Shown here piece after piece: positions 2,140 through 54,530 of a DNA stretch of 64,000 nt. Origin of the DNA: Escherichia phage FEC19; sequence record MH816966; one strand, given 5' to 3'. A program made the translations under genes and the position numbers. Below the pieces are notes generated by a model, which was not told the DNA's origin, searched no databases, and saw nothing but the letters and a program-made list of their open reading frames with translations. Each line of letters begins with the position of its first letter. The stretch's first letter is position 1.

Positions 2140-2450
2140 TGGTTGAAGCGTATCATGACGTATCATCCGTATCGCCGCAAGTCTTTGTTTTTATTTATAT
2201 CTTACGGATAATACGTATAAATATAAGTTTAGTATAAGTATGAGGATGTAGAAAAAAATTAATTTAAATTAATTCAAAATGGAGTTAATTGTTTTTTTCA
2301 AAGTTGTATAAAGTATAGCGGCGACGCGTATCATCCGTATCATCCGTAAGATGTACCACTGAACCCAGTCGCGGCGCACCATAGAAGTGTGTGGAGTGAA
2401 CTACGGATAGGTCCAAATCTTACGTCATTATACGCTTAAATTCTATGCGT
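2140..2450. repeat. composite intergenic element copy 1: multiple TACGGATGA/TCATCCGTA 9-mers in both orientations, AT-rich palindromic core, GCGTATAATGACGTA box
   Basis: A ~45-bp block (ataaagtat.gcgg..acgcgtatcatccgtatcatccgtaagat) is near-identical to 54420-54468. Confidence 0.8.
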
Positions 2451-2720
2451 AAGGTTAGCCAGCTAACTATATCTCCTTTTTAATTTCAAGCGGCAATCCC
2501 AGAGACGGCGCAGCCTACAGGCCCACACACCACGGTACACGCCCCAAAACCTAGTGATTCCCTCTCCAATACCACAACACCACAGTACAATATTCTTCCA
2601 AATTCGCACACATATTCAAGACACAAAAATCACGTCACAATACTCACACCCCCACCATCCTCTAATAGATTTACACAAATCAATCGCTTTATCCGATAAT
2701 AAAGACTCACAAGCAACAAG

Positions 2721-7416: not shown

Positions 7417-7448
7417 AATTCACCTCGCTTGTTAGTCTTGATGAAAAG

Positions 7449-7497
7449 AGTATAAGTATTGATAAAAGAAAAGGCAAGCATTTAGCTCACCTTTTTG
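7449..7497 (-). promoter_or_regulatory. terminator-promoter cassette copy B (TTGCCT-17-TATACT)
   Basis: Same hairpin core as copy A, directly after stop of gene 7502..7834. Confidence 0.6.
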
Positions 7498-7501
7498 ATA
7501 T

Positions 7502-8070: not shown

Positions 8071-8414
8071 ACATTCTCCACGGGTCGACGAATGAGTTTG
8101 CGTAATCCTTCGGGCCAGACCTTCTTGATGACGGCCTTTGCTGGGCTGGATGAAAGCTTCTTCAGCTTCAATAGGACACATCCTTCATCATCGTTCGGTT
8201 GCACCTGGATAACGACTCGCGCTTGTCGGTCGATGACCATGACATCCCCAATGCGAATGTCTTTTACCAACACGCCCATCTCCTTCGTGCCGGATACGCC
8301 ATTGATGTGATCAAAACCTTTTCGCAGCGGTTTCATTATTTCTTCTCCTGCCATTTCTCTGACACGCTTCTTAATCTCTGCGCCAAACAACACTTCGTCT
8401 TTAACATGAGCCAT
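8067..8414 (-). CDS. hypothetical early protein (start uncertain)
   Basis: ORF 8067..8492 trimmed to limit overlap with 8401..8880. Confidence 0.35.
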   Translation of the reverse strand: MAHVKDEVLFGAEIKKRVREMAGEEIMKPLRKGFDHINGVSGTKEMGVLVKDIRIGDVMVIDRQARVVIQVQPNDDEGCVLLKLKKLSSSPAKAVIKKVWPEGLRKLIRRPVENV

Positions 8415-8880
8415 GGTCGAGTACCTTATAGAATTTAGTGGTGAATCGCTCATCGCCATAGTAGCGATACTTGCCGCCGCCAGTGTTATCAAACCTTACC
8501 CATTGAATTAAAGTCTGGTCAGCGTCGTGCGACACGTAAATCACCCGGCCATTAACAGGAATTGCGCCCTCTTCCGCGTCCTTGCTTATGATTGAATCGC
8601 CGTTCTTGATGTCAAATATGTCAATCGGCTTAAGGCGCGGCTTTTTATCAACATAAGTTTGAATAGGAACTCTTACGCAACGTGATTGATGATGGACAAG
8701 TCTTTCAACATGCCTTTTGGTTGGCGGTAAAATCTCGAATGACTCAACGCCTGCAAACTCGCTGTCGATAAATTTATTTATTTTCATCCTTAATGGAATT
8801 GGGACGTTACATTGACTTGTTGCTGCTAAAATAATTGCTGCTTCTGTTTTACTTAACATTAAAGGGCGATGAATGATCAT
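8401..8880 (-). CDS. hypothetical early protein
   Basis: 159-aa ORF. Confidence 0.5.
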   Translation of the reverse strand: MIIHRPLMLSKTEAAIILAATSQCNVPIPLRMKINKFIDSEFAGVESFEILPPTKRHVERLVHHQSRCVRVPIQTYVDKKPRLKPIDIFDIKNGDSIISKDAEEGAIPVNGRVIYVSHDADQTLIQWVRFDNTGGGKYRYYGDERFTTKFYKVLDHGSC

Positions 8881-9038
8881 AATTAACCTCTGATTTGTGA
8901 CACAAAACGTTTATAATGTTCTTTGGCTAAGACGCGTGCGCGCTCTTTCGTATGGCCGCTGGCTTCAAGTACGCGACGAAGCTGCTTGATTGCGTCTGCT
9001 TTACTAACCTTGTTATCGTTAAACTGAAATTTATTCAT
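8881..9038 (-). CDS. small basic hypothetical protein (51 aa, not in ORF track)
   Basis: Fills the gap exactly, with start and stop overlapping the neighbouring genes. Confidence 0.35.
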
Positions 9039-9256
9039 GCTTCACAAGCCGCCTTAATTTGACGTGGAGTAACGATGACTACTTCACCAACCAGTGACTT
9101 GTCATCTTCTTTTACCGTATCGATTCGAACGCGATAGTGATTGCGACCGCGTGAATCAGTAAGGTATTGATCCAGCTCAAGGATGGTGCCTGCGCGCATA
9201 TTCTGTCCTGACATCCAACGGATACGGTCGCCAGCCTTAAGAGTTTTCTTTCTCAT
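9035..9256 (-). CDS. hypothetical early protein (start trimmed to MRKKTLK)
   Basis: Longer ORF would overlap 9264..9542. Confidence 0.4.
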   Translation of the reverse strand: MRKKTLKAGDRIRWMSGQNMRAGTILELDQYLTDSRGRNHYRVRIDTVKEDDKSLVGEVVIVTPRQIKAACEA

Positions 9257-9263
9257 CTTCAAC

Positions 9264-9542
9264 TCACTTATAGTATTTAAACATAGCCGCGCAAAAATCC
9301 TGCATGGCATTCTTAATTTGCTTCTTGAACAACGGGTCATGCATCGTTTCAACATTCGTCTTAATCCGAACGTGACCGATAACATCAAACGCAGTTGCTG
9401 GCATCGGCTCATAGATTTCATGATCGTTCAAGATTATATCTAGTCTTGACTCAGAAATCACGGGATAATTCTTTCCAGCAGTAAACTGGTCATCAATCGA
9501 TAACGTGCACTTGACAAAGAATACTTTGTATGTAGTAATCAT
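9264..9542 (-). CDS. hypothetical early protein
   Basis: 92-aa ORF. Confidence 0.45.
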   Translation of the reverse strand: MITTYKVFFVKCTLSIDDQFTAGKNYPVISESRLDIILNDHEIYEPMPATAFDVIGHVRIKTNVETMHDPLFKKQIKNAMQDFCAAMFKYYK

Positions 9543-9748
9543 AGTGAGTCCTTCGGGCCGCAGTAGCGCCCGTCCAGGTAGCGGTCGTATTGGATTAAAG
9601 CGAATGTTTTCAACGAAAGGTTACGGCGCTTAAACAGGTGACCAGTTGATGGATTCTGCTCGTGCGCCGTTGGATAAAGGCGTGTCAGGTAGTGGATGAG
9701 GACTTGTAAAGCTCTACGTTGCTTTGTTATTCTCCCTTGTGTATTCAT
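9539..9748 (-). CDS. hypothetical early protein (alternative: overlapping ORF 9714..9938)
   Basis: 69-aa ORF; ambiguous. Confidence 0.3.
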   Translation of the reverse strand: MNTQGRITKQRRALQVLIHYLTRLYPTAHEQNPSTGHLFKRRNLSLKTFALIQYDRYLDGRYCGPKDSL

Positions 9749-9977
9749 GGTTGAATCTACCCTCTGTCAATATCCGGTCGTGGATTACTATACCAGTACA
9801 GCGCAGGCGGTTGGCATTGCTTCGCGCCTTTGCTGCTTGATGAGGATTGAACAAGCCAAACAAACTAGCCTTAAAGGCAAACTGGTAATATTTGATTAAA
9901 GTACTAAGTGCTAACTCAATCCTGTCTAAATTAATCATAATATCACCTCGTCAGAAAAGCAAATATTTTGATGATAA

Positions 9978-10625
9978 TTATCCTGTGGCCTGCATATTGC
10001 GTACATACTTCTGCTCTAATGAATAGATGAAGTCGGCGACCGTCAATCCTTTTGTGTGCCACTCATACATTGTGTAGCCTGTATTCAGGAAATAGCCGCG
10101 CACCTTGTCCATTGCTTCAGCTTCCTCCATGGAAGCCATCAGCGCGGCGACGTTATCATAAGAAGGCACAAATCCCTTCTTGCGTAGCGCATTGCGCAAA
10201 TCTTTAGTTCTGAATCCAATCTTGCACAGGTCATCACGGCCCGTTGAAGATGCAACCTTCGGCAGTGCAAGGAACTCTTTGAGGAACATCGAGATGTTCA
10301 GGTCGCCTGCATCATCAAGCTTCTGGAGTCGGTTGCGACCGCGACCCTTGAATTCACTTGCACGAGGGTGAGCGCCAAAACAATGCGCCCCTTCCAATTT
10401 AGGGTCGATGATCATCAAATCTTTGCCTACGCGCAATTCAACGTAGTAAAGGTATGTCTCATCGACAAGCTTCGTGCGTTTACAGGTGATGGAGTCCTTA
10501 TCGTACCCAAAACCACGCAACACGGTTGAAATCATCCGGTTCATTTCTTCTCCATGAACGTCACTCTCTTTGTTCAGTTCACCGAGATGTTGAAAGAATT
10601 TAGCGATGTTGATTGCTTTATTCAT
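9978..10625 (-). CDS. hypothetical protein
   Basis: 215-aa ORF; stop overlaps start of upstream NTPase gene. Confidence 0.5.
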   Translation of the reverse strand: MNKAINIAKFFQHLGELNKESDVHGEEMNRMISTVLRGFGYDKDSITCKRTKLVDETYLYYVELRVGKDLMIIDPKLEGAHCFGAHPRASEFKGRGRNRLQKLDDAGDLNISMFLKEFLALPKVASSTGRDDLCKIGFRTKDLRNALRKKGFVPSYDNVAALMASMEEAEAMDKVRGYFLNTGYTMYEWHTKGLTVADFIYSLEQKYVRNMQATG

Positions 10626-12295
10626 CAGAATTCATCCTTATCTCTTCCTAAAGAACGTTTGCGTTCAATAACCTTCTTCAAGAATTCAATATCTTCAGGG
10701 TCAGACTCGTCGCGGATAAGATACGCTAAGATAGTCATCAAATCAGAAATGTATTCCCCTGCTTCATTCTTAATCAGCGGCGTAAAGTAACCACGCTGGT
10801 TGCGATAGGTTGCAGGCTCAAATCCAAGCTTCGACATGTGCGGCGCAAGGGTACGTGAGAAAGGCGACTTGCCGCACTTAGCTCTGAATCCCATAGCGAT
10901 TGCACCACTGGTGATGTGCCAGCGTCCGCTGTGATGTCGGTCATAAGGCGCGGTGATGACGACTTCAACAAGGTCGTTGTCGACCATCTCGTCACGGATA
11001 ACGCCGCGAGCGCGTTCCATTTCGTTCTTGCTGAACTCAGTAAGCATACGAGATGTCTCACCGACAAAGGCGTTATAACCTGCTTCGCCGTGCTTCTCCA
11101 TCCACGCAGCGCACTCAGCCATCAGCTGCCAAACGTCTTCTTTCAAAGTTGAAAGGTCAGCTTGGAAGTCTTTAGACCAGTTCGGTTGCCCGTCCTTGTC
11201 GGCGAGTTGGCCAACAAAGATAGGATACACACGACGGTTGCCTGTATCGTCACGTTGCATGCCTGCGTATTCGTTGCCGTCCATGATAGCAATCCACTGG
11301 CGTGGTTTAACCTGCGTGTCTTCAAATTTGAAGTCCAGGTCATCTTCCGTCTTAGTCAGGAATGCTTTCATGTTTTCGATGTCGGCCTTTTTAAAGCCTG
11401 TCATCTCACCAACGTTCGCGATAATTGAGCGACCCGTAATAGCTCGCAAGAACGGGTTGAAGTTCTGCGCGGCCAAGTTCAACGGAATCGGTGTTGCGTG
11501 GCGGTCGTTCATAATAGCTTCGCAAAGTAGCTTACTAAAATAACTCTTCCCTGCGTTCTGGCCGCCGATGAGCGCAATGGAGATTGGCGCTTGACAGCCA
11601 GGGTTGGTCAGGCGGTTATAGAGCGATAGCCAAAAATACACACCGATTTGTCGGTTTAACTCTGTATCGAACGGTCGGAATAGCTCGATAAGGTATTTCT
11701 CGATGCGCGCAGTGCCGTCCCATTCAGGAAGCTTCTTGTAGAAGAAGTCCATCAGGTCGTCGCGCTGATAACGCATGGCCCATTCCTTATAGGATTGAGC
11801 GACCTGACGTGAGTTTGGGTTGGACAGACCTGCTGCGTCGACAGCGGCAACTATCTCTGTGACTTCCAATGTACGGTCGGTGAATGTTTCGCCGCGATGG
11901 TCGACTAAGCGTCCACGAAAAGTATCTTTGTGAGGGAATGGGACAATGCCGCTTCCCTTATCAAACAACGCGTCGAAAACCGCATAACGGTTCATGTCAC
12001 TCGTCCGGTCCGCCTGAAGAACAAAATCATCTTTCGTCGGTTTGTAGTGAGGGAACTTGATTACCTGAAGTGAGGCGAGCAAACGTGCTCTTTCAACCAA
12101 GTCTTCTTCGCCGTAGCACTCCATGCGCTCTGCATCTTTCTCAACAGCCTTATGCTGGAGGCTGATTTTAGCTCTGGTGCCTTGCTGCTCTGCCGCTTGC
12201 ATCTCTTCTGACACACCAGCGTCTTGAATTTCGTCAAAGATTGCACCAAATTCATCACCTGTATCCTCTGGAAGATTGTCATGTTCAATTGACAT
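10625..12295 (-). CDS. VirE/D5-like P-loop NTPase, putative replication helicase
   Basis: Walker A IALIGGQNAGKSYFSKLL; size and layout like phage/plasmid primase-associated helicases. Confidence 0.6.
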   Translation of the reverse strand: MSIEHDNLPEDTGDEFGAIFDEIQDAGVSEEMQAAEQQGTRAKISLQHKAVEKDAERMECYGEEDLVERARLLASLQVIKFPHYKPTKDDFVLQADRTSDMNRYAVFDALFDKGSGIVPFPHKDTFRGRLVDHRGETFTDRTLEVTEIVAAVDAAGLSNPNSRQVAQSYKEWAMRYQRDDLMDFFYKKLPEWDGTARIEKYLIELFRPFDTELNRQIGVYFWLSLYNRLTNPGCQAPISIALIGGQNAGKSYFSKLLCEAIMNDRHATPIPLNLAAQNFNPFLRAITGRSIIANVGEMTGFKKADIENMKAFLTKTEDDLDFKFEDTQVKPRQWIAIMDGNEYAGMQRDDTGNRRVYPIFVGQLADKDGQPNWSKDFQADLSTLKEDVWQLMAECAAWMEKHGEAGYNAFVGETSRMLTEFSKNEMERARGVIRDEMVDNDLVEVVITAPYDRHHSGRWHITSGAIAMGFRAKCGKSPFSRTLAPHMSKLGFEPATYRNQRGYFTPLIKNEAGEYISDLMTILAYLIRDESDPEDIEFLKKVIERKRSLGRDKDEF

Positions 12296-12349
12296 TTAAT
12301 CCTCCTGATACGGCTTTGTTATATTGTTGCATGGATATATCCTTTCAGG

Positions 12350-12381
12350 GTGCGGTAAATAAACGCCAGAAATCTGGCGTT
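12350..12381 (-). terminator. hairpin (aacgccag / ctggcgtt) with modest U-run
   Basis: Perfect 8-bp inverted repeat with aaat loop. Confidence 0.4.
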
Positions 12382-12431
12382 GTATATTAATATAGTAAAA
12401 CTCAGTTTAAAGCAATATAACTGGTGAACTA

Positions 12432-12722
12432 TCAGCAAGGAAATTGGTCAGCGTATGCCTTTCTCAATTTGTTTACTGACTGAACAGAATGAAGGTATTG
12501 GCAATCGGTGAAGATGCGGCGCAAACAATCCATAGAAGACAGGTCATCGTTAGTAACCACCAGAATCTCTTCCGAAGGGCAACCAGCTTCTTTGGCAATC
12601 TCATTAAGATTTGAGCCATTAATTTCTTCAACACGTTTCACCTCATCGATACCGTAAACATCAACGGCAACTTCGATGTCGTCATCGCTGATATTCTCAC
12701 CATAAAGAATTACAATATTCAT
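12432..12722 (-). CDS. hypothetical early protein (acidic)
   Basis: 96-aa ORF. Confidence 0.5.
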   Translation of the reverse strand: MNIVILYGENISDDDIEVAVDVYGIDEVKRVEEINGSNLNEIAKEAGCPSEEILVVTNDDLSSMDCLRRIFTDCQYLHSVQSVNKLRKAYADQFPC

Positions 12723-12823
12723 TTACTCACCCCTGCCAAATAATGTGCCATATCCAATACATATAATAGCCCCAGGATGATAACAAGGGAAATGATTAAT
12801 GTGTATTTCTTTACGGCTTTCAT
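12719..12823 (-). CDS. small hydrophobic peptide (34 aa, one predicted TM), not in ORF track
   Basis: MKAVKKYTLIISLVIILGLLYVL...; stop overlaps next start. Confidence 0.3.
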   Translation of the reverse strand: MKAVKKYTLIISLVIILGLLYVLDMAHYLAGVSK

Positions 12824-12841
12824 ATGTATCTATACCTAAAT

Positions 12842-13105
12842 TTACTGTTGAGGATCACCGATGGAGTCTGTCGCATCCCATTCAACGCGTGCTGTACGTT
12901 CTGCTGGTGGACAACCTTCTCCGGCGTAAAGCTCCACCACACCTTCGTGAGAGCAGCACTGGCACTCTACAAGGTCGCCGTCCTCCCAGGCACCTTCTTC
13001 TGCATTGCGATGCTGCCGCACCTTGATCACATCGCTTGCACAGTTAGGACAAGTCGAAAGACTGCTTGTGACGTTCCAAACGAACTCGTTGCGGAAAGCA
13101 CCCAT
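12842..13105 (-). CDS. hypothetical zinc-ribbon protein (CPNC...CQCC)
   Basis: Start trimmed to MGAFRNEF to abut upstream stop. Confidence 0.45.
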   Translation of the reverse strand: MGAFRNEFVWNVTSSLSTCPNCASDVIKVRQHRNAEEGAWEDGDLVECQCCSHEGVVELYAGEGCPPAERTARVEWDATDSIGDPQQ

Positions 13106-13106
13106 G

Positions 13107-13397
13107 CTACACCTCTTGATCTCGCTGTTGTTGAATCGCGGCTGCAGCTTCTTCAAAATTGACGGGCTCAACGGTAAATGTCGCGCTGACAGTGAAGTTG
13201 TTAATCGTCAGCAAAGTATTGAAACGCTCTGCATTCAGATTCATCGCCACGTGCGTCGACACATTAAGGATTGCACCAACGACTTCTTCCACCGCATAGC
13301 CTTTAAACAGAGGAAGAATTTCATTGACAAGCTTCAGCTCGTTCTCCACGCGAAGTTTTTGTGCTTCTTCAGTGGTCATCATTTTTGGTTCGTTCAT
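13107..13397 (-). CDS. hypothetical early protein
   Basis: 96-aa ORF. Confidence 0.5.
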   Translation of the reverse strand: MNEPKMMTTEEAQKLRVENELKLVNEILPLFKGYAVEEVVGAILNVSTHVAMNLNAERFNTLLTINNFTVSATFTVEPVNFEEAAAAIQQQRDQEV

Positions 13398-13399
13398 TT

Positions 13400-13546
13400 T
13401 TATTCCTTAACAAATTCAGAGTAGTGTTTGGCCGCAGCCGATTGGTGGTGAGCCATGACACCTTCAAGGGTGGGAAGCTCTACGTGCTTAGGTTCTAACG
13501 AATTTAACAGACCTTCAAGCTCGATGTTCAATTCTTCGCTTTGCAT
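13400..13546 (-). CDS. small hypothetical protein (48 aa, not in ORF track)
   Basis: GAGGTGA RBS upstream of ATG at 13544-13546. Confidence 0.35.
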   Translation of the reverse strand: MQSEELNIELEGLLNSLEPKHVELPTLEGVMAHHQSAAAKHYSEFVKE

Positions 13547-13604
13547 AAATCACCTCTGCTTCAGTTCATAAAATGATTATAGTTGCTAGAAAAATAAAAG
13601 CAAA

Positions 13605-14687
13605 CTATTTTATGCCACCTGCGCGACGATTTATCATATCAAGTTGATTCTCAATATAAGGCATGACTACTGCTTCAACAAAAGCGGTCCAGCCTTTCTT
13701 GCCTTCACCTTTCCGGTGACAGTCGTGAGCGCAACCGAAAACGAATTCATGTTCAGCGCCAGGGATTGGGCCTCGAAAATAAGCGCCGTATGGGTCGCCG
13801 TTGGTGTGCTCTTCACCCCAAGGACAGATGATGCGGCATTTACCTGACATGTTTTCAACCACATCGCCATCGGACCCTTCGCCCATCTTATTGCGCGCAA
13901 GGATTTGCTGGGCTATTTTATACCAAACAGCATCATATTTGTATTCGTCAACGTCGATTTGAATTTCACGCTTTTGCGGCATAACGACGTGGAAACCGAA
14001 GGCTTGGCAAATCTCTTCGATTGTGTAGCGCAAGGAATAGTCTGCATGGACAAGTCGGCAGCGGAACGGGTCGCCGTTCTCATCGACATATTTATAGGGG
14101 CCGTCGTGAGTCACACGCTTGTTGTTGATGCACCCAGGAACACGGCCCACGCGCGTCACGTCTTTAATCGTGTTGTCGCCGCCCTTCTTGAGTACCATGT
14201 TTACGAAAGACCCAAGGAATGCTTTGAACTGAATAAGATGGTCAATCGGTTCTTTAAAGAAGTACCACAGCTGATGGTTGTTCGGCGAAGTCTCGACGAT
14301 GACGGTTGGTTTTAGGCGCTCGAAAAAGAATTCCAAATCTAAATCGCCCTTTGACCCTTTACCGTGCCCAATGTCGTCGACCATCATCGCCATGCCATGA
14401 CCAAAGGCCGATTCCGTGCGCCAGTATCGCATCTCGCCTGTCTTTGGGTTGGGAGACTTACGCATTGAACTTATGCAGGCGTAACCGTTCTGATGTTGCA
14501 TCAGCGGCTTGCCAAGCTTCCAAGGCTTAGGCCAGAAGCTGCTGTTAATCTTTTTGCCGCGCTCGTCAGTCTGCACTGTTGCTTCAGGCGCAAACACGGT
14601 CATGACGCGTTCATCTTCTGGAATGCCTCTTTGGAGTTCCGTCAAAAACTCTTCGATTATTTTTGCTTCTTCTCTTAAACTAGCCAT
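13605..14687 (-). CDS. archaeo-eukaryotic-type primase (prim-pol-like) with C-terminal Cys/His zinc motif
   Basis: Ordered AEP-like motifs: MVDDIG (DxD), TSPNNHQLWYFF (sGxGxH-like), KDVTRV; C-terminal CPWGEEH...CAHDCH. Confidence 0.55.
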   Translation of the reverse strand: MASLREEAKIIEEFLTELQRGIPEDERVMTVFAPEATVQTDERGKKINSSFWPKPWKLGKPLMQHQNGYACISSMRKSPNPKTGEMRYWRTESAFGHGMAMMVDDIGHGKGSKGDLDLEFFFERLKPTVIVETSPNNHQLWYFFKEPIDHLIQFKAFLGSFVNMVLKKGGDNTIKDVTRVGRVPGCINNKRVTHDGPYKYVDENGDPFRCRLVHADYSLRYTIEEICQAFGFHVVMPQKREIQIDVDEYKYDAVWYKIAQQILARNKMGEGSDGDVVENMSGKCRIICPWGEEHTNGDPYGAYFRGPIPGAEHEFVFGCAHDCHRKGEGKKGWTAFVEAVVMPYIENQLDMINRRAGGIK

Positions 14688-14716
14688 CTTTCTTTCCTTC
14701 GGTGATCAATACCTGC

Positions 14717-14744
14717 AGTATAATATTGAGTGATACAAAGTCAA
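14717..14744 (-). promoter_or_regulatory. sigma70-like promoter (TTGACT-16-TATACT) for the primase operon
   Basis: Read from reverse complement upstream of ATG 14687. Confidence 0.5.
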
Positions 14745-14780
14745 CAATATTTACCATTTAGTTCACAATTTCGATTTACT

Positions 14781-14809
14781 TTGCTTTATACTATATCTGC
14801 AATTATACT
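14781..14809 (+). promoter_or_regulatory. sigma70-like promoter (TTGCTT-17-TATACT) for the plus-strand replication block
   Basis: Divergent from the minus-strand promoter in the same gap. Confidence 0.5.
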
Positions 14810-14847
14810 ATCAGAAAATATTTCCGCACTAACAAAGGTCGCCTGAA

Positions 14848-15174
14848 ATGAACGAAAAAGATACGAAGCAACGCGAACGTGCAACACACGTCGGCATCGT
14901 TGAGTCCTTCCTTAATACAAGACTGAATTCAAGTCTTACAATTATGCGATTCCTGGGTCAACCAGACAGAATCAAATTCATCTTTGCCGCAAATCCGGTA
15001 TCGCTTTACATCCCTGTTGAATCCATGGCGTACCTGGTGCGCGACGAGCAAGGGTGGAAGATACCAAACACGACTGTTTTCTTCAGCCACGTTGACGGTG
15101 AGATGTTTGAACGAAAAGAAGATTGCCATTTTATTCCAGTATATCTGGACCTTGAAAGCGTAGTGGAGTTATAA
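14848..15174 (+). CDS. hypothetical protein, first gene of plus-strand block
   Basis: 108-aa ORF; stop overlaps helicase start. Confidence 0.45.
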   Translation: MNEKDTKQRERATHVGIVESFLNTRLNSSLTIMRFLGQPDRIKFIFAANPVSLYIPVESMAYLVRDEQGWKIPNTTVFFSHVDGEMFERKEDCHFIPVYLDLESVVEL

Positions 15175-16358
15175 TGAACATTCCAGAATTTAATAATGAG
15201 CCAGTGATTCAGTTCAACGCGCAACAGATTGATGCCATCGAAAAGGCCGTTGCATGGTACAAGCGATTGCAGGACGGTAAAACGACGAAGCGCGTGTTTT
15301 TCATCGCTGGCTATGCAGGAACAGGTAAAACCTCTATTGCGCGTGAGATTGTGCGCCGTTGTGTCGGTGAGTACGGTGCCATTTATATTGCGCCGACCGG
15401 AAAGGCCGCCAGCCGATTGAAGCAGAAAGGGTGTCGTGGCGCGAAGACCCTTCACCAGTTCATCTATAACGTGCGCGGCGTAAATGACGACAATGAGCCA
15501 ATATTTTCGAGAAAGTCAAAGCTGGACGAAAAGCCGCATCTTGTAGTCCTTGATGAAGCTTCAATGGTTGGCGAGTGGGATACAGAGCGCCTTCTTGATC
15601 ACCGCATCCCTGTGCTGGCATTAGGCGACATTGGACAAGTCCCTCCAGTAAAAGCCGCCGCCTACTTTACTGAAGATGCCGTTGACGTCCTGTTAACCGA
15701 AATCATGCGGCAGGGGAAAGAGTCCAACATAATCCGCGCTTCCTTCTTCGTGCGACAGGGCAACCGACTTCCTCCGCGTGAATACGATGACGTAAAGGTG
15801 TTGGCTGAATCGCCGCGCGTTACCGCGCTGAAGAAATTCATGGGCGAAGATGATCAAATTATTTGTTCATATAATAGCACTAAAGATAAATGGAATTCAT
15901 TATTGCGACAAGTGAGCGGACGTATAACGCCAATGCCAGGAATCGGCGAGAAAGTTATTTGCACATTCAACCAACACGGGCCAGGATTCTGTAATGGCGA
16001 GCAAGGGATTGTTATTAGTTATGAGCCAGTGCCGGACTTTGAAAGGGATGAAGACGAGTCTAATGAAATCATGTATGTCAATTTGCGCTCGCTTACCGAT
16101 GGCAAGGATATAAAGGTTAAGATCAATCCTCTTTCCTTCTCTACTGATCAGGAAGTGCGCAAAGAGGCTCAACGCGCTGTTGGAGGTATGGACTATGGCT
16201 ATGTCATAACGGTGCACAAATCGCAAGGCAGCGAGTGGGACAATGTGTGCGTGCTGGAAGAAATCTTGCGCGGCGTTCCGTATGCCAAGATGATGTACAC
16301 AGCCATCACCCGCGCTAAGAAGAATCTGACCGTGTACCGTGATTTGAAAGCGCGTTAA
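15174..16358 (+). CDS. SF1 DNA helicase (RecD/Dda-like)
   Basis: GYAGTGKT Walker A, VVLDEASMV motif II, C-terminal ITVHKSQGSEWDNV. Confidence 0.8.
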   Translation: MNIPEFNNEPVIQFNAQQIDAIEKAVAWYKRLQDGKTTKRVFFIAGYAGTGKTSIAREIVRRCVGEYGAIYIAPTGKAASRLKQKGCRGAKTLHQFIYNVRGVNDDNEPIFSRKSKLDEKPHLVVLDEASMVGEWDTERLLDHRIPVLALGDIGQVPPVKAAAYFTEDAVDVLLTEIMRQGKESNIIRASFFVRQGNRLPPREYDDVKVLAESPRVTALKKFMGEDDQIICSYNSTKDKWNSLLRQVSGRITPMPGIGEKVICTFNQHGPGFCNGEQGIVISYEPVPDFERDEDESNEIMYVNLRSLTDGKDIKVKINPLSFSTDQEVRKEAQRAVGGMDYGYVITVHKSQGSEWDNVCVLEEILRGVPYAKMMYTAITRAKKNLTVYRDLKAR

Positions 16359-16517
16359 TGTTGACGTAAATTTACGAAAAATAAAACTGAAAATCAGTTT
16401 AATTAAAGTGGCATCGCCGCCAGAGTTTTTAGTTGCTACTGGCGGCGACTGAAGGCATAATTAAGTTATCCCAAACGGGGAATATAAAATAAACTAATTT
16501 ATTTAAGGACTGTGAAT

Positions 16518-17357
16518 ATGGCCGAAGCAATCAAAGTATTATCTAAAGAAGAAAAACAAGCAGCTGCAGCAGAACGTCGTCGCGTGGCTGAAGAAAAACG
16601 CCTGGCTAAAAAGAAAGAAGCCGAAGAAAAACGCCAGAAGCGTGAGCAGGAAAAACAAGCCAAGCGTGAAGAAGCTGCGCTGAAACGCAAGCAGGCTGCT
16701 GATGAGAAGGCTCAGAAGCGTGCTGAAGAAGCAGCGAAGAAAGCCAAAGAGCGTGCAGAAAAGGCTGCTGCTAAGAAAGCAGAGCGTGAAGCCGCTAAAG
16801 CAGCAAAAGAAATCGAAAAGGCAAAGGCTAAAGAAGAAGCCAAGCGCCTGAAAGCTGAACAAGCTGCTGCTAAGAAAGCAGAGCGTGATCAAGCCCGTGC
16901 TGCAGCGAAGGCCGAAAAAGAGAAGGCCAAAGAAGAAGCTAAAGCGAAACGCAAGGCAGAGCGTGAAGCTGCTAAGATTGCGGCTAAAGAAGCTGCAGAA
17001 AAGCAGAAAGAACAGCGTAAGAAAGAAGCTGAAGAACGTCGCAAAGCCATCGCAGAACGTAAGGCTGCTAAAAAGGCAAACGGTCAGCGTCGTGCAAAAG
17101 CAACCCACTTCATCTACACTGGCAATGGCCTGAGCCAGCCGCAAGAGCATTCCACCCGTGGACGCGTTCTGGCGGCGATCAAAGAAGGCGAAGTTGGCGT
17201 GGCGCAGTCTATCGATGAGCTGGGCGAAAAAGTTAAAGATCAACTGTTTGGCGCTTCCGTTCGCTCCTACCTGAGCAAGCTGGAAGAGATGGGCCACATC
17301 GAGTTTGTCGATGTTGAATCCAACGAAGATGCCGAAGACGGTGATCAAGCGGAATAA
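16518..17357 (+). CDS. K/A/E-rich low-complexity charged-repeat protein with small globular C-terminal domain
   Basis: ~200 aa of AEEKR/AKKAER-type repeats; ATG at 16518 preferred over GTG at 16512 (AAGGA RBS). Confidence 0.55.
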   Translation: MAEAIKVLSKEEKQAAAAERRRVAEEKRLAKKKEAEEKRQKREQEKQAKREEAALKRKQAADEKAQKRAEEAAKKAKERAEKAAAKKAEREAAKAAKEIEKAKAKEEAKRLKAEQAAAKKAERDQARAAAKAEKEKAKEEAKAKRKAEREAAKIAAKEAAEKQKEQRKKEAEERRKAIAERKAAKKANGQRRAKATHFIYTGNGLSQPQEHSTRGRVLAAIKEGEVGVAQSIDELGEKVKDQLFGASVRSYLSKLEEMGHIEFVDVESNEDAEDGDQAE

Positions 17358-17384
17358 CCTTAGGACGGTTATGCAGCGGTAATT

Positions 17385-22259: not shown

Positions 22260-22802
22260 GTGTTATTTCTCCCTTATGACTTCGAAACAACCGGATTAAC
22301 CGTGCACCCGAAAGCGCCGCTTGGAATGCAGCCGCGCCCTATTGAATTTGCAGGCCTGTTGACGGATGGAAAAGAGATTCTTGAAACTTTCGAGTTCATA
22401 ATTAATCCTGAAATTGTGATTGAAGAAATCATCACAAAGATTACCGGATTAACCAATGAAGACCTTGAGTGCAATCCACCCTTTATTCATTTCGTTCCGC
22501 AACTAAAAGACATCTTCAAGAAGACTGATGCCACTATCGCGCACAACCATGCGTTCGATAAGAACATCCTTGATTATGCATTGCAGCGCGAAGGTCTTAC
22601 ACTTGGTGATGTTAATTTTCCAGAAATAAACATTTGTACAGTCGAGCAAACCTTGCCTATTTTTGGCCGAAGAGTTAAGCTTCAAGAGCTGTATGAATTA
22701 TATTTCGGAAAATATGAACAGAAGCACCGTGCATTAGACGACGTAATATTACTGCACAAAGTCTGCCAACAAATTGGCGTATATGACATCTGGAGTAAAT
22801 AA
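22260..22802 (+). CDS. dnaQ: DnaQ-like 3'-5' proofreading exonuclease
   Basis: Exo I YDFETTG, Exo II AHNHAFD, Exo III HRALDD; GTG start with strong GGAGG RBS. Confidence 0.8.
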   Translation: MLFLPYDFETTGLTVHPKAPLGMQPRPIEFAGLLTDGKEILETFEFIINPEIVIEEIITKITGLTNEDLECNPPFIHFVPQLKDIFKKTDATIAHNHAFDKNILDYALQREGLTLGDVNFPEINICTVEQTLPIFGRRVKLQELYELYFGKYEQKHRALDDVILLHKVCQQIGVYDIWSK

Positions 22803-25699
22803 TGTTTCCACAATTGAGAGTTCGCAGCGGTTACACGTTCAAAGAAGTATATGGACGGCATCCTGAAATTATAGCACGGCTCAAAGAGTTGGGCTGCGAA
22901 GTCGCGGCATTAGTTGATAACAATACATGGGGTCACGTTCGCTGGGAAAAGGAATGCCAGAAAAATGATATTAAGCCTATGTTCGGCATGGAGATTCCAA
23001 TCATCGACCCTGATGCGGACCCGAAAAAGGGATTCAAACCGAAGGCTTGGATATTGGCGCTTGACCTGAAATCCTTTTACAATGCGACCACGCTTGCAAC
23101 ACAGCGCGGCGGATTGACCCGTGCAGAGTTCGGGGCGCTGGATGGCGTCGTTAAATTCTGTGGCGGTGCCGTGGAGCTGCTGCGGCCAGAGGACTACGAT
23201 TATATAGACGTCAACCCATCATCGTTCCTTTTGGCCAAGCGCCAGGTATTGGCTCACCGCAGCAACGGAAGGCCGCTGGTTTTAACCGGATACAACCACA
23301 TGCCTTCACCTGAGCACGTTGACTTTGCTTATGCTTGGGAAGTGCGCGACACGGTTAAGCCGCACTGCATCGTTGACGCGGAAGACTTGCGCAAACAGCT
23401 TAAAGGAATCCTGACCGAAGATGAGTTGAATCAAGCAACGGCCAATGCGGTTGATATTGCAAACGGAATCGTTGGGCTTGACCTGAAGCTGCGCAAGGCA
23501 CCGATTATCCACCTTGCTGGTGACATGGTAAAGCTTGCTCGTGAGGGGATGGAGTACCGCCTCAAAGCAGGTCACATCAAAGAATGGACGCAGGAATATG
23601 AGGACCGATTCAACGAAGAGATTCACCAGATTCAGCTGAAAGATTTCGACTCATACTTTCTGGTGGTAGCGGACCTTGTACGATTTGCAAAAACAAAAAT
23701 GCTCGTCGGACCCGCTCGCGGCTCATCGGCTGGTTCACTGGTTTGTTATTGCCTCGGCATCACGGAAGTTGACCCAATCCCGTATAAGCTGCTATTTGCC
23801 CGATTCATCGACGTAAGCCGCGCCGACCTCCCTGATATTGATATTGACTTTGAGGACACCAAACGCTATATGGTGTTTGATTACCTCAAAGAAAAATACG
23901 GCGAAATGAACGTTGCAAAGCTTGGAAACATCAACACGCTTAAGGCCAACTCAGTAATGGCTCAGGTTGGTAAGAAGTTCAACATTGGATATCACGAAAC
24001 GGCCAACATTAAAAACGCATTGCTTGAATACTCATCCGGTGACGCCCGTTATGGTCACGGTCTGGAGGATACCTTTGCAACAACGACCACGGGCCAAGAG
24101 TTCGTGGCGAAATATCCTGACGCCGCGCGATGCATGGGTGACCTTGAGATTCACCCTTCTCACACTGGCGTTCATGCAGCGGGAATCATTGTGTGTAATG
24201 ACCCAATCTCTGATTACTGTACTGTAACGGCGGAAGGGATTGCGCAAATTGATAAGCCTGACAGCGAATACCTTAACCTTTTGAAGCTTGATGCGTTGGG
24301 CCTTCGTACCCTCGGCATCATTTCTGATACTGGCGTGATAGATGCTGAAACGCTGTACGGAATCAAGCTTGATGATCAAAGCGTCCTTGACATCCTTAAC
24401 GAAAACAAAATGTCAGGCATCTTCCAGTTTGAAGGTGACGCTGTACGCTCAGTAACCAACTTTGTGCACGTTGATAACTTTAACAAAATCGATAACCTGA
24501 CAGCACTTGGTCGACCTGGCCCGTTGTCATCCGGTATGGCCCAAAAATACATCGAACGCGCGGCAGGACGTGCGCCGATTGAGTACGACGTGCCGCAGCT
24601 TGAGCCGTACTTAAAAGAGACTTACGGCGTGTTCCTTTACCAAGAGCAAATCATGGCCGTGGTTAAAGAGATTGGTTCATTTGACTGGGCGAAAACATCA
24701 GCCGTGCGTAAGGCGATGTCAGGTCGTAAGGGTGAGGAATACTTTAACAAGCTTGGCGAAGACTTCGTTGCAGGCGCAATAAATAACGGCGTACCGGAAG
24801 CGGATGCAAGAAAGCTTTGGCAGGCGATGGCGACGTTCGGGTCATGGGGCTTTAACAAGTCACACTCCGTGTCATACGCGGTCGTAACCTACTGGACCTT
24901 GTGGCTTAAACGACACTACCCGTTGGAATTTGCCGCTGCTTGCTTACGCGCTGCTAAGGACGAAGACCAGACGATTGCGATATTACGTGAACTTGCGAAG
25001 GAAGGCGTGGATTATGTGCCAATCGACCCTGATCACTCTTCAATGAACTGGACCATCGCTAACGGAAAGCTAATCGGCGGCATCATGAACGCTAAAGGGT
25101 ACGGAATGGTGAAGGCGATGAAGTACATCGAAGCACGTGAAGCCGGAACCTTAACGCAAAAGCAGAAGGATGCATTGGCCAATGCTGAAGTCAAATACGG
25201 CGACCTTACAGAGATGCACACCAAGTTCGGCTGGGCATATAATGACCCATATCTTATTGGCGTCACTTCCGGCGCTTCAATACGCCAGATGAAGGAAGTA
25301 GGCGATGATGAGCGTGCAATAGTAATCGGCAAACTGACCAAGAAAGTGCTGGCAGACGAGAACGAAGCAACACGCATCCGTAAACGTCTTGAGCGCGGCA
25401 TTTACACAAAGCACGGCAAACTTAAAAAGGGTCTTCAAGCTGATGGTCGCTACGCAGAGTTTGACCAGTATGGAAACAAGCTTGAAACTCAATTCATCGA
25501 CCTTATGTGCAAGGACGATTCGACCGACTCGCCAATGCGCTTCAGGATTCGCCCAGAGAAGTTCCAGAAATACGGGAAGTACATTGCAGAGAACGTCGGG
25601 AACGGTGCATTCTTCCTGATGAAAGGCCGCAAGCTTGAAGGTATTGATATGTTCATCGTCGACGTTATCAAACAGGTGTATCCAGATGGCAACAAATAA
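22802..25699 (+). CDS. dnaE: DNA polymerase III alpha-like (DnaE family, PHP N-terminus)
   Basis: N-terminal LRVRSGYTF PHP-like start, PDIDIDFED catalytic aspartates, LLKLDALGLRTL motif; 965 aa. Confidence 0.85.
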   Translation: MFPQLRVRSGYTFKEVYGRHPEIIARLKELGCEVAALVDNNTWGHVRWEKECQKNDIKPMFGMEIPIIDPDADPKKGFKPKAWILALDLKSFYNATTLATQRGGLTRAEFGALDGVVKFCGGAVELLRPEDYDYIDVNPSSFLLAKRQVLAHRSNGRPLVLTGYNHMPSPEHVDFAYAWEVRDTVKPHCIVDAEDLRKQLKGILTEDELNQATANAVDIANGIVGLDLKLRKAPIIHLAGDMVKLAREGMEYRLKAGHIKEWTQEYEDRFNEEIHQIQLKDFDSYFLVVADLVRFAKTKMLVGPARGSSAGSLVCYCLGITEVDPIPYKLLFARFIDVSRADLPDIDIDFEDTKRYMVFDYLKEKYGEMNVAKLGNINTLKANSVMAQVGKKFNIGYHETANIKNALLEYSSGDARYGHGLEDTFATTTTGQEFVAKYPDAARCMGDLEIHPSHTGVHAAGIIVCNDPISDYCTVTAEGIAQIDKPDSEYLNLLKLDALGLRTLGIISDTGVIDAETLYGIKLDDQSVLDILNENKMSGIFQFEGDAVRSVTNFVHVDNFNKIDNLTALGRPGPLSSGMAQKYIERAAGRAPIEYDVPQLEPYLKETYGVFLYQEQIMAVVKEIGSFDWAKTSAVRKAMSGRKGEEYFNKLGEDFVAGAINNGVPEADARKLWQAMATFGSWGFNKSHSVSYAVVTYWTLWLKRHYPLEFAAACLRAAKDEDQTIAILRELAKEGVDYVPIDPDHSSMNWTIANGKLIGGIMNAKGYGMVKAMKYIEAREAGTLTQKQKDALANAEVKYGDLTEMHTKFGWAYNDPYLIGVTSGASIRQMKEVGDDERAIVIGKLTKKVLADENEATRIRKRLERGIYTKHGKLKKGLQADGRYAEFDQYGNKLETQFIDLMCKDDSTDSPMRFRIRPEKFQKYGKYIAENVGNGAFFLMKGRKLEGIDMFIVDVIKQVYPDGNK

Positions 25700-26108
25700 C
25701 CGCGAGCAAAAATACATATTCGTTCCTTTGAAGAAGCATTCAGAATCAATATTGAAGCTTCAACGAATCGAATCGATGACTGGTGATGGCGTGCCGGACG
25801 TAATCGGCACCAACCGGAAAGGTCGCGGCTTTTGGCTTGAAATGAAGTTCTTTGAATCGTGGCCTGCAAGGGCCACCACTGCACCTTTCAGAAATGCATT
25901 TGAGAAAGGTCAGTGCAGCTTTCTTTCTTCGTGGAATGATTGGAAATACCCATCATTTGTTTTGCTTAAAGTCGATTCTGAGAAGATGTTTTATTTAGTC
26001 CACCCTTCGATTGAATTAAAGCGTTATAATATTGCAGACGTTCAACGTGAGATAATCGTGAAGGGAACTATTCACCACATCATTAAGTATTTAGAGGAAT
26101 TGTCATGA
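25686..26108 (+). CDS. VRR-NUC / PD-(D/E)xK-type nuclease, putative
   Basis: PDVIG...GRGFWLEMK arrangement; start at ATG overlapping dnaE stop. Confidence 0.5.
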   Translation: MATNNREQKYIFVPLKKHSESILKLQRIESMTGDGVPDVIGTNRKGRGFWLEMKFFESWPARATTAPFRNAFEKGQCSFLSSWNDWKYPSFVLLKVDSEKMFYLVHPSIELKRYNIADVQREIIVKGTIHHIIKYLEELS

Positions 26109-27628
26109 AAACACAAGGGATGCGCCACCAGCTTCTGGCGCTTGATAAAGCAGGCCGCAGAAAATACTTTGCCTATTTCATGGAACAGGGTCTTGGTAAA
26201 ACTTGGACCGCTTTGGCAGAGTTTGAAAAGCACTTCACCGCTGGCGCGTTCGATGCCATGGTAGTCATCGCTCCAAACGGTGTCCACTCAAACTGGATTC
26301 GTCGTGAAGCGCCAGAGCACCTTTCCATCAAGTGGATTGGGCACTACTGGCGCGGCAACGATAAGATGAAAACTAAAAAGGGCAAGGCGCTTTGGGAGAA
26401 GATGTTTGCTGATCACTACCCCGAAGGCGAAGTGCCTGCGCGCATCTTCTCATTCAACATCGATACTGTCAACACACCAGTCGGTTATCAACACATCGAG
26501 TCGGTCTTGAAGAAGTACCGCTGCCTGATGATCATCGACGAATCAACGCGCATCAAGAATAACACAGCCAAACGCTCCATCAAGGTTGTGGAATTGGGAC
26601 GGCTGGCAAAGGCCCGTCGAATCCTTTCTGGCACGCCGTTGCCGCGCTCGCCTGCGGATATTTACATGCAATACCACTTCCTTGAAGCAGGATTGCTCGG
26701 CACCAAATCATTCCGTGCCTTTAACTCTGAATTTACAGTGCTGCTTGAAGCGCACGACCCAGAGATGCAAGCCATCCTCAAGAAAATCGGCGGCAATGGC
26801 TATGGGATTCCGCAAGTGCCGCGCAAAGACCAGTTTGGCCGACCGATGTACAAGAACCTTGACAAGCTTATCCGGCTGATGGAACCGCACTATTTTCGTG
26901 CAACAAAAGCAGAATACTTGCCTGACCTTCCAGAGAAGGTGTACAAGTTTATTGACTTCGAGTTGTCGCCTAAACAACGCGATGTTTACGATGAACTCAA
27001 GAATGAGTACAACTATTTGATGGAATACAAGGGCGAAGAAGAAAACGTCAAGTTTGAGATGATCGCGTCGCGCACTAAGATGAAGCAGGTGACATCCGGC
27101 TTTGTTAAGGTGTATGATGAGATGGTCTACATGGAAGACAACCCACGATTCACGGCCTTTAAGGATTATGTGGAAGGTGTGCTGGAAGATGACCCAGAGC
27201 GCAAATTCATCGTTTGGGCCATCTTTAAGGAAGAGATGAACCAGATTAAGGACTGGCTTGAGTCTGAAGGCGTGGTCACTGGTGTATACAATGGTGAAAC
27301 GTCCAAAGAGCAGCGAGAGTTCTTAATTGATGACTTCCAGAAGAATACAGTCGAGAACGGCGGAACGCAAGTCTTGGTTTGCCACGCTGCAGCGGCAGGC
27401 ATCGGCATCACTCTTACCGCCGCTGACTTGGCAATTTATTATTCTTGCAACTACGACAACGAGCTGCGCAAACAATCCGAAGACCGAAATCACCGCATCG
27501 GCACCAAATCAAGCGTGTTGTATGTTGATTTTATTGGTGTTGATACCATCGACGAAGAAATTCAGCGTTCACTCAGTATGAAGTCAATGCTTGCTGATCA
27601 CATCCTCGACGGCAAAAAGATGAATTAA
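26105..27628 (+). CDS. SNF2-family helicase/ATPase
   Basis: GLGKTWTAL motif I, MIIDESTRIKN motif II, C-terminal helicase region. Confidence 0.8.
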   Translation: MKTQGMRHQLLALDKAGRRKYFAYFMEQGLGKTWTALAEFEKHFTAGAFDAMVVIAPNGVHSNWIRREAPEHLSIKWIGHYWRGNDKMKTKKGKALWEKMFADHYPEGEVPARIFSFNIDTVNTPVGYQHIESVLKKYRCLMIIDESTRIKNNTAKRSIKVVELGRLAKARRILSGTPLPRSPADIYMQYHFLEAGLLGTKSFRAFNSEFTVLLEAHDPEMQAILKKIGGNGYGIPQVPRKDQFGRPMYKNLDKLIRLMEPHYFRATKAEYLPDLPEKVYKFIDFELSPKQRDVYDELKNEYNYLMEYKGEEENVKFEMIASRTKMKQVTSGFVKVYDEMVYMEDNPRFTAFKDYVEGVLEDDPERKFIVWAIFKEEMNQIKDWLESEGVVTGVYNGETSKEQREFLIDDFQKNTVENGGTQVLVCHAAAAGIGITLTAADLAIYYSCNYDNELRKQSEDRNHRIGTKSSVLYVDFIGVDTIDEEIQRSLSMKSMLADHILDGKKMN

Positions 27629-54180: not shown

Positions 54181-54224
54181 ACAATAATTATGGTTTGAAT
54201 ATGTATAACAACCGATATAGCCGC

Positions 54225-54530
54225 GCCTTAATTAGTGTGATACGGATGATACGGATAAAATGAGGCGTATTTTTATCCGTATCGGTGTATAAGCCGCGCT
54301 ATCACTGGTGTGCTACGGATGATACGGATGATACGGATACTTTTCATATATAAGAGTTTATAAAAAAAATAAAATTAAATTAGATATATAATTTTAAATT
54401 AATTTATTTGAATTCCTATAAAGTATCGCGGCAACGCGTATCATCCGTATCATCCGTAAGATTCTTTTGAAAACAACTACTTACTTGATACGGATGATAC
54501 GTCATTATACGCGTAAAATCCTGCGGCAAT
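54225..54530. repeat. composite intergenic element copy 2 (TACGGATGA 9-mers, 13-bp perfect inverted repeat, AT-rich core, GCGTATAATGACGTA box)
   Basis: Homologous to 2140-2450; triple tandem tacggatga at ~54282-54308. Confidence 0.8.

What the first reader, a model, noticed from the sequence alone, without database searches (positions are those of the whole stretch)
10625..14687. AEP-type primase and D5/VirE-like NTPase encoded separately on the early strand, apart from the polymerase block
The primase-like protein (motifs MVDDIG, SPNNHQLWYFF, zinc ribbon) and the P-loop NTPase (GGQNAGKS) are in the minus-strand early block, separated by small genes, while DnaE, DnaQ, SF1 and SNF2 helicases are on the plus strand. 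The replisome composition (AEP primase plus DnaE-type polymerase plus two helicase classes) is an uncommon combination.
Basis: partly seen in the sequence, partly recalled or inferred. Interest (0 to 1): 0.4.

Follow-up and report, generated by a model that had tools for sequence, protein, structure and literature searches.

The report
Known phage primase and helicase genes

Summary

The split pair and the same replisome recur in about 360 phage records (Pbunavirus, Bcepfunavirus and others). It has been noted for PB1-like phages since 2010 and was described for Pbunavirus Banzai in 2025. The combination is therefore lineage-typical rather than surprising. 'Early' expression was not tested.

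One side observation may be new. An iteron plus AT-rich element occurs exactly twice per genome in three genera, each with its own iteron sequence. One copy sits downstream of the helicase gene. It is a candidate origin, but a packaging or regulatory role is not excluded.

The parts
13605..14687 (-). Primase gene (360 aa): RepB'-family AEP catalytic domain (aa ~40-237), a linker, and a C-terminal Cys/His zinc-type domain (aa ~270-340)
14367..14384 (-). AEP motif I (MVDDIG; D104 and D105 invariant)
   Evidence: Alignment of 47 homologues; coordinates.
14256..14288 (-). AEP motif II, RepB'-type with Gln in place of His (SPNNHQLWYFF; S134, N137 and Q139 invariant)
   Evidence: Aligns to RepB' 'ETSPKNYQAW'. 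The His-to-Gln change is typical of the RepB' family (PMC5862659).
14160..14183 (-). Probable AEP motif III (GGDNTIKD; G169, G170 and D171 invariant), followed by the conserved R179 and R182 (probable motif IV Arg)
   Evidence: The assignment of these residues to motifs is inferred.
13716..13826 (-). Zinc-type ligand cluster C288-x5-H294 ... C319-x-H321-x2-(C/H)
14717..14744 (-). Sigma-70-like promoter (TTGACT-16-TATACT, 10 of 12 matches) upstream of the primase gene, in the divergent intergenic region 14688-14847
   Evidence: This is a consensus match only.
13400..13546 (-). Small gene, 48 aa, unknown function
   Evidence: annotated in WFC.
13107..13397 (-). Small gene, 96 aa, unknown function
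   Evidence: Substitutions at codon positions 1/2/3 = 10/2/37 against WFC.
12842..13105 (-). Small gene, 87 aa, four-Cys zinc ribbon (CPNC...CQCC)
   Evidence: Substitutions at codon positions 1/2/3 = 2/2/21. phrog_4446 E=5e-10. Not conserved at this position in Pbunavirus or Bcepfunavirus.
12720..12824 (-). Small gene, 34 aa, hydrophobic peptide
   Evidence: Read from the sequence; annotated in WFC.
12432..12722 (-). Small gene, 96 aa, unknown function
12362..12381 (-). Terminator-like hairpin (AACGCCAG-ATTT-CTGGCGTT followed by TATTT) between the small genes and the helicase gene
   Evidence: Sequence. Annotated as a terminator in WFH and WFC. It fell below the threshold of the tool's own scan.
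10625..12295 (-). Helicase gene (556 aa): N-terminal domain, VapE/SF3 ATPase core (aa ~190-383), a long helix, and a winged-helix C-terminal domain (aa ~431-510)
11543..11566 (-). Walker A (GGQNAGKS)
   Evidence: G244, Q246, G249 and K250 invariant, S251 nearly so.
11396..11413 (-). Walker B region (VGEMTG; E297 invariant)
11222..11242 (-). GNRRVYP, with R354 and R355 invariant (probable arginine finger). N341 (MDGNEY, nt 11267-11284) is the probable sensor / motif C.
   Evidence: The functional roles are inferred from SF3 helicases.
10766..11005 (-). Winged-helix C-terminal domain of the helicase, the least conserved folded part
15174..16358 (+). Dda-like SF1 helicase, in the divergently transcribed block
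22260..25699 (+). DnaQ-like 3'-5' exonuclease (22260-22802) and DnaE-type Pol III alpha (22802-25699)
   Evidence: Pfam RNase_T, DNA_pol3_alpha and finger domain. TIGR00594 475 bits, above its cut-off.
26105..27628 (+). SNF2-family translocase
2140..2460 (.). Tentative: iteron/AT-rich element 'site A', a candidate origin or terminus element about 8.3 kb downstream of the helicase gene
54220..54520 (.). Tentative: iteron/AT-rich element 'site B', in the gap upstream of the head protease gene

Best explanation
The two genes encode the primosome of a Wifcevirus. The 556-aa protein is a hexameric SF3 (VapE/D5-like) replicative helicase. Its C-terminal winged-helix domain probably lets it bind the origin and load itself, as SaPI Rep proteins do. 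The 360-aa protein is a RepB'-family archaeo-eukaryotic primase (AEP). Its C-terminal zinc-type domain replaces the helix-bundle (PriCT) domain of RepB' and S-2L PrimPol, and presumably holds the template and initiating nucleotide during primer synthesis. The primers are extended by the phage's own DnaE polymerase with its separate DnaQ-like proofreader. Ligase, polynucleotide kinase, and the Dda-like and SNF2 motors are accessory. The pair is a split version of the AEP-VirE-helicase fusions known from S-2L PrimPol and SaPI5 PriRep. It is the ancestral arrangement of the whole PB1-like phage lineage. Shown here: family membership, folds, conserved catalytic residues, gene arrangement and distribution. 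Inferred: enzymatic activities, hexamer formation, self-loading, primase-helicase contact and early expression.
Against: No protein of this phage lineage has been characterised biochemically, so all activities are inferred. The zinc domain has no sequence-level family assignment, and zinc binding is not shown. A terminator lies between the two genes, so they may not be co-transcribed. No contact between the two proteins was tested. No iteron array lies next to the helicase gene in this window, unlike in SaPIs.
Confidence: 0.85

Rival explanations
1. Both genes encode DNA primases, as RefSeq and PHROGs label them ('DNA primase' twice), so the 556-aa protein would itself be a primase or a primase-helicase fusion.
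For: RefSeq WFH gp071 and gp076 and PHROG families phrog_4861 and phrog_4630 are both labelled 'DNA primase'.
Confidence: 0.04
2. The AEP protein is a repair or restart primase-polymerase (translesion synthesis or repriming) rather than the replicative primase, and routine priming is done by host DnaG.
For: Many bacterial and phage AEPs are PrimPols with repair roles (PMC4538821). The closest structural match, S-2L PrimPol, is a polymerase (PMC8065100).
Against: No other primase was found in the region examined. The gene is strictly conserved with the helicase and DnaE across three genera at 51-65% identity. RepB', the family prototype, is a dedicated primase for Pol III (PMC4538821). A phage with its own DnaE, helicase and ligase would be expected to bring its own primase: 98% of dsDNA viruses that encode a polymerase do (PMC4889955).
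Confidence: 0.08
3. The primase-helicase pair belongs to a satellite or PICI-like mobile element inserted in the phage genome, not to the phage's own replisome.
For: Pri and Rep (VapE-like) pairs are typical of SaPIs and other satellites (PMC9371898). VapE core hits include Streptococcus satellite phages.
Against: The genes sit at the same syntenic position, divergent from the Dda/DnaE block, in Wifcevirus, Pbunavirus and Bcepfunavirus. Base composition is unremarkable. No integrase or att-like repeats flank them.
Confidence: 0.02

Closest known systems
Orthologous pair in PB1-like phages: Pbunavirus 14-1 gp73/gp75, Banzai_075/077, JG024 ORF77; Bcepfunavirus Maja 057/062
   Same: Same two proteins. 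The primase is 64% identical and the helicase 44% identical in Pbunavirus. They are separate genes on one strand, divergent from the Dda / DnaE / DnaQ / SNF2 / ligase block. The literature already notes that the primase lies outside the replication cluster (PMC3008698), and reads the helicase as a self-loading initiator (PMC12390725).
   Different: Only the spacing differs. There is one 61-aa membrane peptide between the genes in 14-1. Wifcevirus has five small genes plus a terminator (1.3 kb). Maja has four genes plus a terminator (2.5 kb).
Cyanophage S-2L PrimPol (PDB 6ZP9; AEP - PriCT-2 - VirE-family helicase in one polypeptide)
   Different: S-2L fuses the modules, has a PriCT-2 helix bundle instead of a zinc-type domain, and is thought to be the phage's only polymerase. 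Here the modules are split and a DnaE polymerase is present.
RSF1010 RepB' primase (PDB 3H20/3H25) with RepA helicase and RepC initiator
   Different: RepB' has a C-terminal helix bundle and no zinc motif (PMC4538821). Its helicase RepA is not SF3. A separate initiator, RepC, and specific ssiA/ssiB sites are used. None of these was found here.
SaPI1 Pri + Rep and SaPI5 PriRep (PDB 7PDS, 7OLA), staphylococcal self-loading helicases
   Different: 20% sequence identity. In SaPIs the origin lies immediately downstream of rep. In this window no iterons adjoin the gene; the nearest iteron/AT-rich element is 8.3 kb downstream.
Poxvirus D5 and phage NrS-1 primase-helicases
   Different: These are fusion proteins. 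The Pfam DUF5906 (NrS-1/D5-type) score is below its cut-off (22 against 27.6 bits). This protein belongs to the VapE family, not to D5 proper.

Membership tests
Archaeo-eukaryotic primase (AEP) superfamily | AEP catalytic fold | tested here: met
Archaeo-eukaryotic primase (AEP) superfamily | Motif I acidic pair, motif II (sxH or Gln variant) and motif III Asp conserved | tested here: met
   D104/D105, S134/N137/Q139 and D171 are invariant in 47 homologues. Motif II aligns to RepB'. Assignment of motifs III and IV is by position and conservation only.
Archaeo-eukaryotic primase (AEP) superfamily | De novo primer synthesis on ssDNA | not testable with these tools
   This needs an enzyme assay.
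RepB' family (Pfam PF16793; PrimPol-PV1 supergroup) | Match to the RepB_primase model above the gathering score | tested here: met
   126.4 bits against a cut-off of 24.3, aa 40-237 covering 4-181 of 186 model positions.
RepB' family (Pfam PF16793; PrimPol-PV1 supergroup) | Gln replacing the motif II His | tested here: met
   Q139 is invariant. This is the family trait described in PMC5862659.
RepB' family (Pfam PF16793; PrimPol-PV1 supergroup) | C-terminal PriCT-1 helix-bundle domain, as in the RSF1010 prototype | tested here: not met
   The C-terminus is a beta-rich Cys/His domain with one long helix. It has no Pfam hit. RepB' itself lacks a zinc motif (PMC4538821). This is a domain-architecture variant; the catalytic domain is still a family member.
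RepB' family (Pfam PF16793; PrimPol-PV1 supergroup) | Priming at specific ssi hairpin sites | not tested
   No search for ssiA-like hairpins was made.
VapE/VirE family of SF3 helicases (Pfam PF05272) | Match to the VapE-like_dom model above the gathering score | tested here: met
   100.1 bits against a cut-off of 25.
VapE/VirE family of SF3 helicases (Pfam PF05272) | Walker A, Walker B, sensor Asn and arginine finger conserved | tested here: met
   G244, Q246, G249, K250, E297, N341, R354 and R355 are invariant and S251 nearly so in 52 homologues. Functional roles are inferred.
VapE/VirE family of SF3 helicases (Pfam PF05272) | Fold of hexameric SF3 replicative helicases | tested here: met
Poxvirus D5 / NrS-1 type helicase (Pfam DUF5906, D5_N) | Match to D5-type models above the gathering score | tested here: not met
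   DUF5906 scores 22 bits against a cut-off of 27.6. There is no D5_N hit. The protein is D5-like at fold level only.
SaPI-type self-loading Rep initiator-helicases | C-terminal winged-helix DNA-binding domain | tested here: met
SaPI-type self-loading Rep initiator-helicases | Iterons in both orientations around an AT-rich region immediately downstream of the rep gene | tested here: not met
   No repeat arrays beyond chance in 9900-15300. Such an element does lie immediately downstream of the orthologous gene in 14-1 and Maja. In this window it lies 8.3 kb downstream.
SaPI-type self-loading Rep initiator-helicases | Sequence-specific origin binding and melting by the helicase | not testable with these tools
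   This needs EMSA or footprinting.

The most novel reading that the evidence does not exclude
The helicase is the replication initiator of the whole PB1-like lineage, and its variable winged-helix domain recognises a previously undescribed bipartite origin element. The element has lineage-specific iterons in both orientations around an 80-90% AT core, with a conserved GCGGC box beside it. It occurs exactly twice per genome. One copy lies downstream of the helicase gene and one lies upstream of the head protease gene. In Wifcevirus the copy downstream of the helicase also contains the left physical end of the 3.5-3.7 kb direct terminal repeat, which would link initiation of replication to formation of the genome ends.
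Probability: 0.3. Interest if true: 0.5.

Novelty: already known. Interest (0 to 1): 0.15.

Why it matters
The finding itself matters little. It is a correct re-annotation of genes already deposited for dozens of Wifcevirus genomes and hundreds of Pbunavirus genomes, and their roles have been discussed in print. It does have two uses. First, public labels are misleading: the helicase is called 'DNA primase' in RefSeq and PHROGs. Second, no enzyme of this replisome has been characterised, although Pbunavirus phages are widely used in therapy and Wifcevirus phages are reported to replicate unusually fast (BASEL preprint 10.1101/2024.09.12.612763). The RepB'-type AEP with a zinc-type domain in place of PriCT is a domain architecture not listed for the RepB' family in PMC5862659. 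The twice-per-genome iteron/AT-rich element gives a concrete, testable candidate for the unknown origin, or packaging site, of these phages.

Tried and rejected

2. NCBIfam gave no hit for either protein.

3. I looked for a SaPI-like origin next to the helicase gene. There were no repeat families beyond chance in 9900-15300. Promoter and terminator counts there equal those of shuffled sequence.

4. I considered the 87-aa zinc-ribbon gene between primase and helicase as a conserved primosome accessory and rejected it. The gene at that position is a membrane peptide in 14-1, and other genes occupy it in Maja.

5. I considered a satellite or PICI insertion and rejected it because the locus is syntenic across three genera.

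6. Rfam gave no match in 1-16000, so the CA-rich stretch is not a known RNA.

7. The supplementary tables of PMC4889955 and PMC10914365, which could list this lineage's replisome and the 14-1 transcription start sites, are not held. The RepB' structure paper is not held either.

8. GC skew was not used as origin evidence, because its turning points coincide with changes in transcription direction.
Full report
**Identity of the window.** The region 10000-15200 is 98.5% identical to Escherichia phage vB_EcoM-Ro157lw and 93-98% identical to 26 other records of the genus Wifcevirus. These are E. coli and Shigella myoviruses of 67-72 kb, described as distant relatives of Pbunavirus (PB1-like Pseudomonas phages) in the BASEL preprint. 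The primase protein is 100% identical to that of Ro157lw, and the helicase is 100% identical to that of ECML-117. RefSeq annotates both genes as 'DNA primase' (WFH gp071 and gp076).

**Observation.** ORF 13605-14687(-) encodes 360 aa and ORF 10625-12295(-) encodes 556 aa. The motifs MVDDIG, SPNNHQLWYFF, the Cys/His cluster and GGQNAGKS are at the positions given in 'parts'.

Between the two genes lie five minus-strand genes of 48, 96, 87, 34 and 96 aa. They are followed by a hairpin with a T-tract at 12362-12381, which WFH and WFC annotate as a terminator. After that come a strong ribosome-binding site and the helicase start codon. Comparison with WFC (93% identity) shows substitutions concentrated at third codon positions for the minus-strand 87-aa ORF (2/2/21) and the 96-aa ORF (10/2/37). 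The plus-strand ORF that WFH annotates at 12799-13026 shows 1/14/1, so it is probably a mis-call.

The plus strand carries a Dda-like SF1 helicase, a DnaQ-like exonuclease, a DnaE-type polymerase (TIGR00594 above its cut-off), an SNF2 translocase, an ATP-dependent ligase, a polynucleotide kinase and a thymidylate synthase.

- LigD polymerase domains

Invariant residues match the AEP motifs: D104/D105 (motif I), S134/N137/Q139 (motif II), G169/G170/D171, and R179/R182. A profile search aligns motif II with RepB' 'VVETSPKNYQAW'. A Gln in place of the usual motif II His is the stated hallmark of the RepB'-like family (PMC5862659).

There is no primase domain in this protein. The N-terminal 190 residues hit no Pfam family. 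The protein aligns only to the helicase part of the primase-helicase fusion families phrog_256 and phrog_16593. The public label 'DNA primase' is therefore wrong. Phages BcepF1, MTx and Maja already label their orthologues as helicases.

**Distribution and prior knowledge.** Full-length primase homologues at 51-65% identity occur in 363 phage records. These are about 300 Pbunavirus, 27 Wifcevirus, and Serratia, Erwinia, Burkholderia, Xanthomonas, Salmonella and Pantoea phages. The full-length helicase occurs in the same set.

In Pbunavirus 14-1 the genes are gp73 and gp75, with one 61-aa membrane peptide between them. In Bcepfunavirus Maja they are genes 057 and 062, 2.5 kb apart, with four genes and a terminator between them. 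In all three genera they lie on one strand, divergent from the Dda...DnaQ-DnaE...SNF2...ligase block. The split arrangement is therefore ancestral.

[quoted passage not shown] The Banzai paper of 2025 describes the same replisome and proposes the VapE-like protein as a self-loading initiator helicase (PMC12390725). [quoted passage not shown] RepB' primers are extended by Pol III in RSF1010 (PMC4538821). The 'uncommon combination' is thus a lineage trait with classical precedent.

**Mechanism.** The most likely mechanism has these steps, all inferred except where noted:
- The helicase binds an origin through its winged-helix domain, assembles as a hexamer, melts the DNA and unwinds it.
- The primase makes short primers on the exposed strands. 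Its zinc-type domain plays the template and initiating-nucleotide role that PriCT or helix-bundle domains play in RepB' and S-2L.
- Phage DnaE with its DnaQ-like exonuclease elongates the primers.
- Ligase and polynucleotide kinase process lagging-strand fragments.

What is shown is limited to folds, motifs, synteny and distribution. A near-consensus sigma-70-like promoter (TTGACT-16-TATACT, 14744-14717) precedes the primase gene. That fits early transcription by host RNA polymerase, but no expression data exist for this genus.

**Side observation.** While looking for an origin I found that the only iteron-like arrays in the window are at 2140-2460 (site A) and 54220-54520 (site B).
- Each site has 9-bp units (GATACGGAT / GATGATACG) in both orientations. 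They surround a core that is 90% AT at site B and 80% AT at site A, against 54% for the window.
- GATGATACG occurs 9 times against 0.47 expected. All nine ATACGGAT words in the window lie in the two sites.
- Both sites are conserved in all 27 Wifcevirus records.

The same architecture recurs in two other genera:
- In 14-1 the two most AT-rich 80-nt stretches of the genome lie in a 960-nt gap immediately downstream of the helicase gene and in the gap upstream of the head protease gene. They share CCGGTAATT iterons, and all five CGGTAATT words of the genome are there.
- In Maja the same two positions hold the two most AT-rich stretches, and they contain all ten TAGTTAAC words of the genome.

A box resembling AAAGT.TCGCGGCA adjoins the AT core in Wifcevirus and Pbunavirus, and GCGGCGA boxes occur in Maja. 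A CA-rich, G-poor stretch of about 120-300 nt follows the helicase-side copy in all three. Relative to the flanking genes, the element is inverted in Wifcevirus compared with 14-1 at both sites and with Maja at the head-protease site, which argues against a simple promoter role for the conserved core.

The helicase winged-helix domain is its least conserved folded part, at 25% against 58% identity. That is what a lineage-specific iteron reader would show.

However, the genome records of WFH and Ro157lw, from different laboratories, begin at the same nucleotide (window ~2280, inside the AT core of site A). They also end at the same nucleotide, giving direct terminal repeats of 3701 and 3533 bp (PMC6563267). 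The element could therefore equally be a terminase or packaging signal. A sigma-70 promoter was predicted in the AT core of the head-gap site in JG024 (PMC3008698). I regard the origin reading as possible, about 0.3, and untested.

**Verdict.** The biology is that of a known, conserved phage replication module, so novelty is 'already known' and interest is low.

Noticed in passing
window 2140-2460 and 54220-54520; also L005/L002 (14-1 record 12770-13322 and 58933-59600) and L006/L007 (Maja record 6123-6581 and 48133-48850): An iteron plus AT-rich element occurs exactly twice per genome in Wifcevirus, Pbunavirus and Bcepfunavirus, at syntenic positions: downstream of the helicase gene and upstream of the head protease gene. 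The iterons are lineage-specific: GATACGGAT, CCGGTAATT and GATAGTTAAC. Every genome-wide copy of the iteron word lies in the two sites. The element could be a replication origin, a packaging signal or a regulatory site.
   Followed up: partly
window ~2280 (AT core of site A): The deposited genomes of WFH and Ro157lw, from independent laboratories, start at the same nucleotide here and end at the same nucleotide. This gives exact direct terminal repeats of 3701 and 3533 bp. The left physical genome end therefore lies inside the iteron/AT-rich element. The right end has no such element.
   Followed up: partly
window 2480-2700; 14-1 record 59560-59880; Maja record 48680-48800: A CA-rich, G-poor non-coding stretch of about 120-300 nt lies next to the helicase-side copy of the element in all three genera. 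There is no Rfam match, and its function is unknown.
   Followed up: partly
window 12799-13026 (+) versus 12842-13105 (-): RefSeq WFH annotates a plus-strand ORF (gp074) here. Substitution patterns against WFC (1/14/1 for the plus frame, 2/2/21 for the minus frame) show that the real gene is the minus-strand 87-aa four-Cys zinc-ribbon protein, as annotated in WFC.
   Followed up: yes
window 10625-12295 (-): The VapE-type helicase is labelled 'DNA primase' in RefSeq and in PHROG phrog_4630, although it has no primase domain. The label appears to be inherited from primase-helicase fusion relatives.
   Followed up: yes
window 25635-26108 (+): This small protein is labelled 'DNA helicase' in PHROGs (phrog_2165) and RefSeq. 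It has no Pfam or NCBIfam hit and is too small for a helicase. The Pbunavirus Banzai paper calls the gene at the corresponding position a Holliday junction resolvase.
   Followed up: no
window 1048-1943: The 12-mer CATAGTGCAAAT, or close variants, is repeated six times in intergenic DNA of the terminal-repeat region. It may be a promoter or operator motif.
   Followed up: no
window 16512-17357 (+): A conserved protein (phrog_4765; 14-1 gp67) is built of Lys/Ala/Glu-rich repeats encoded by imperfect direct DNA repeats with spacings of 33-102 nt. A long antisense ORF (16539-17603) is probably an artefact of the repeat composition.
   Followed up: no
window 12328-12347: A palindrome centred on GGATATATCC lies between the terminator and the helicase start codon. 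It may be an operator or part of a promoter for the helicase transcription unit.
   Followed up: no
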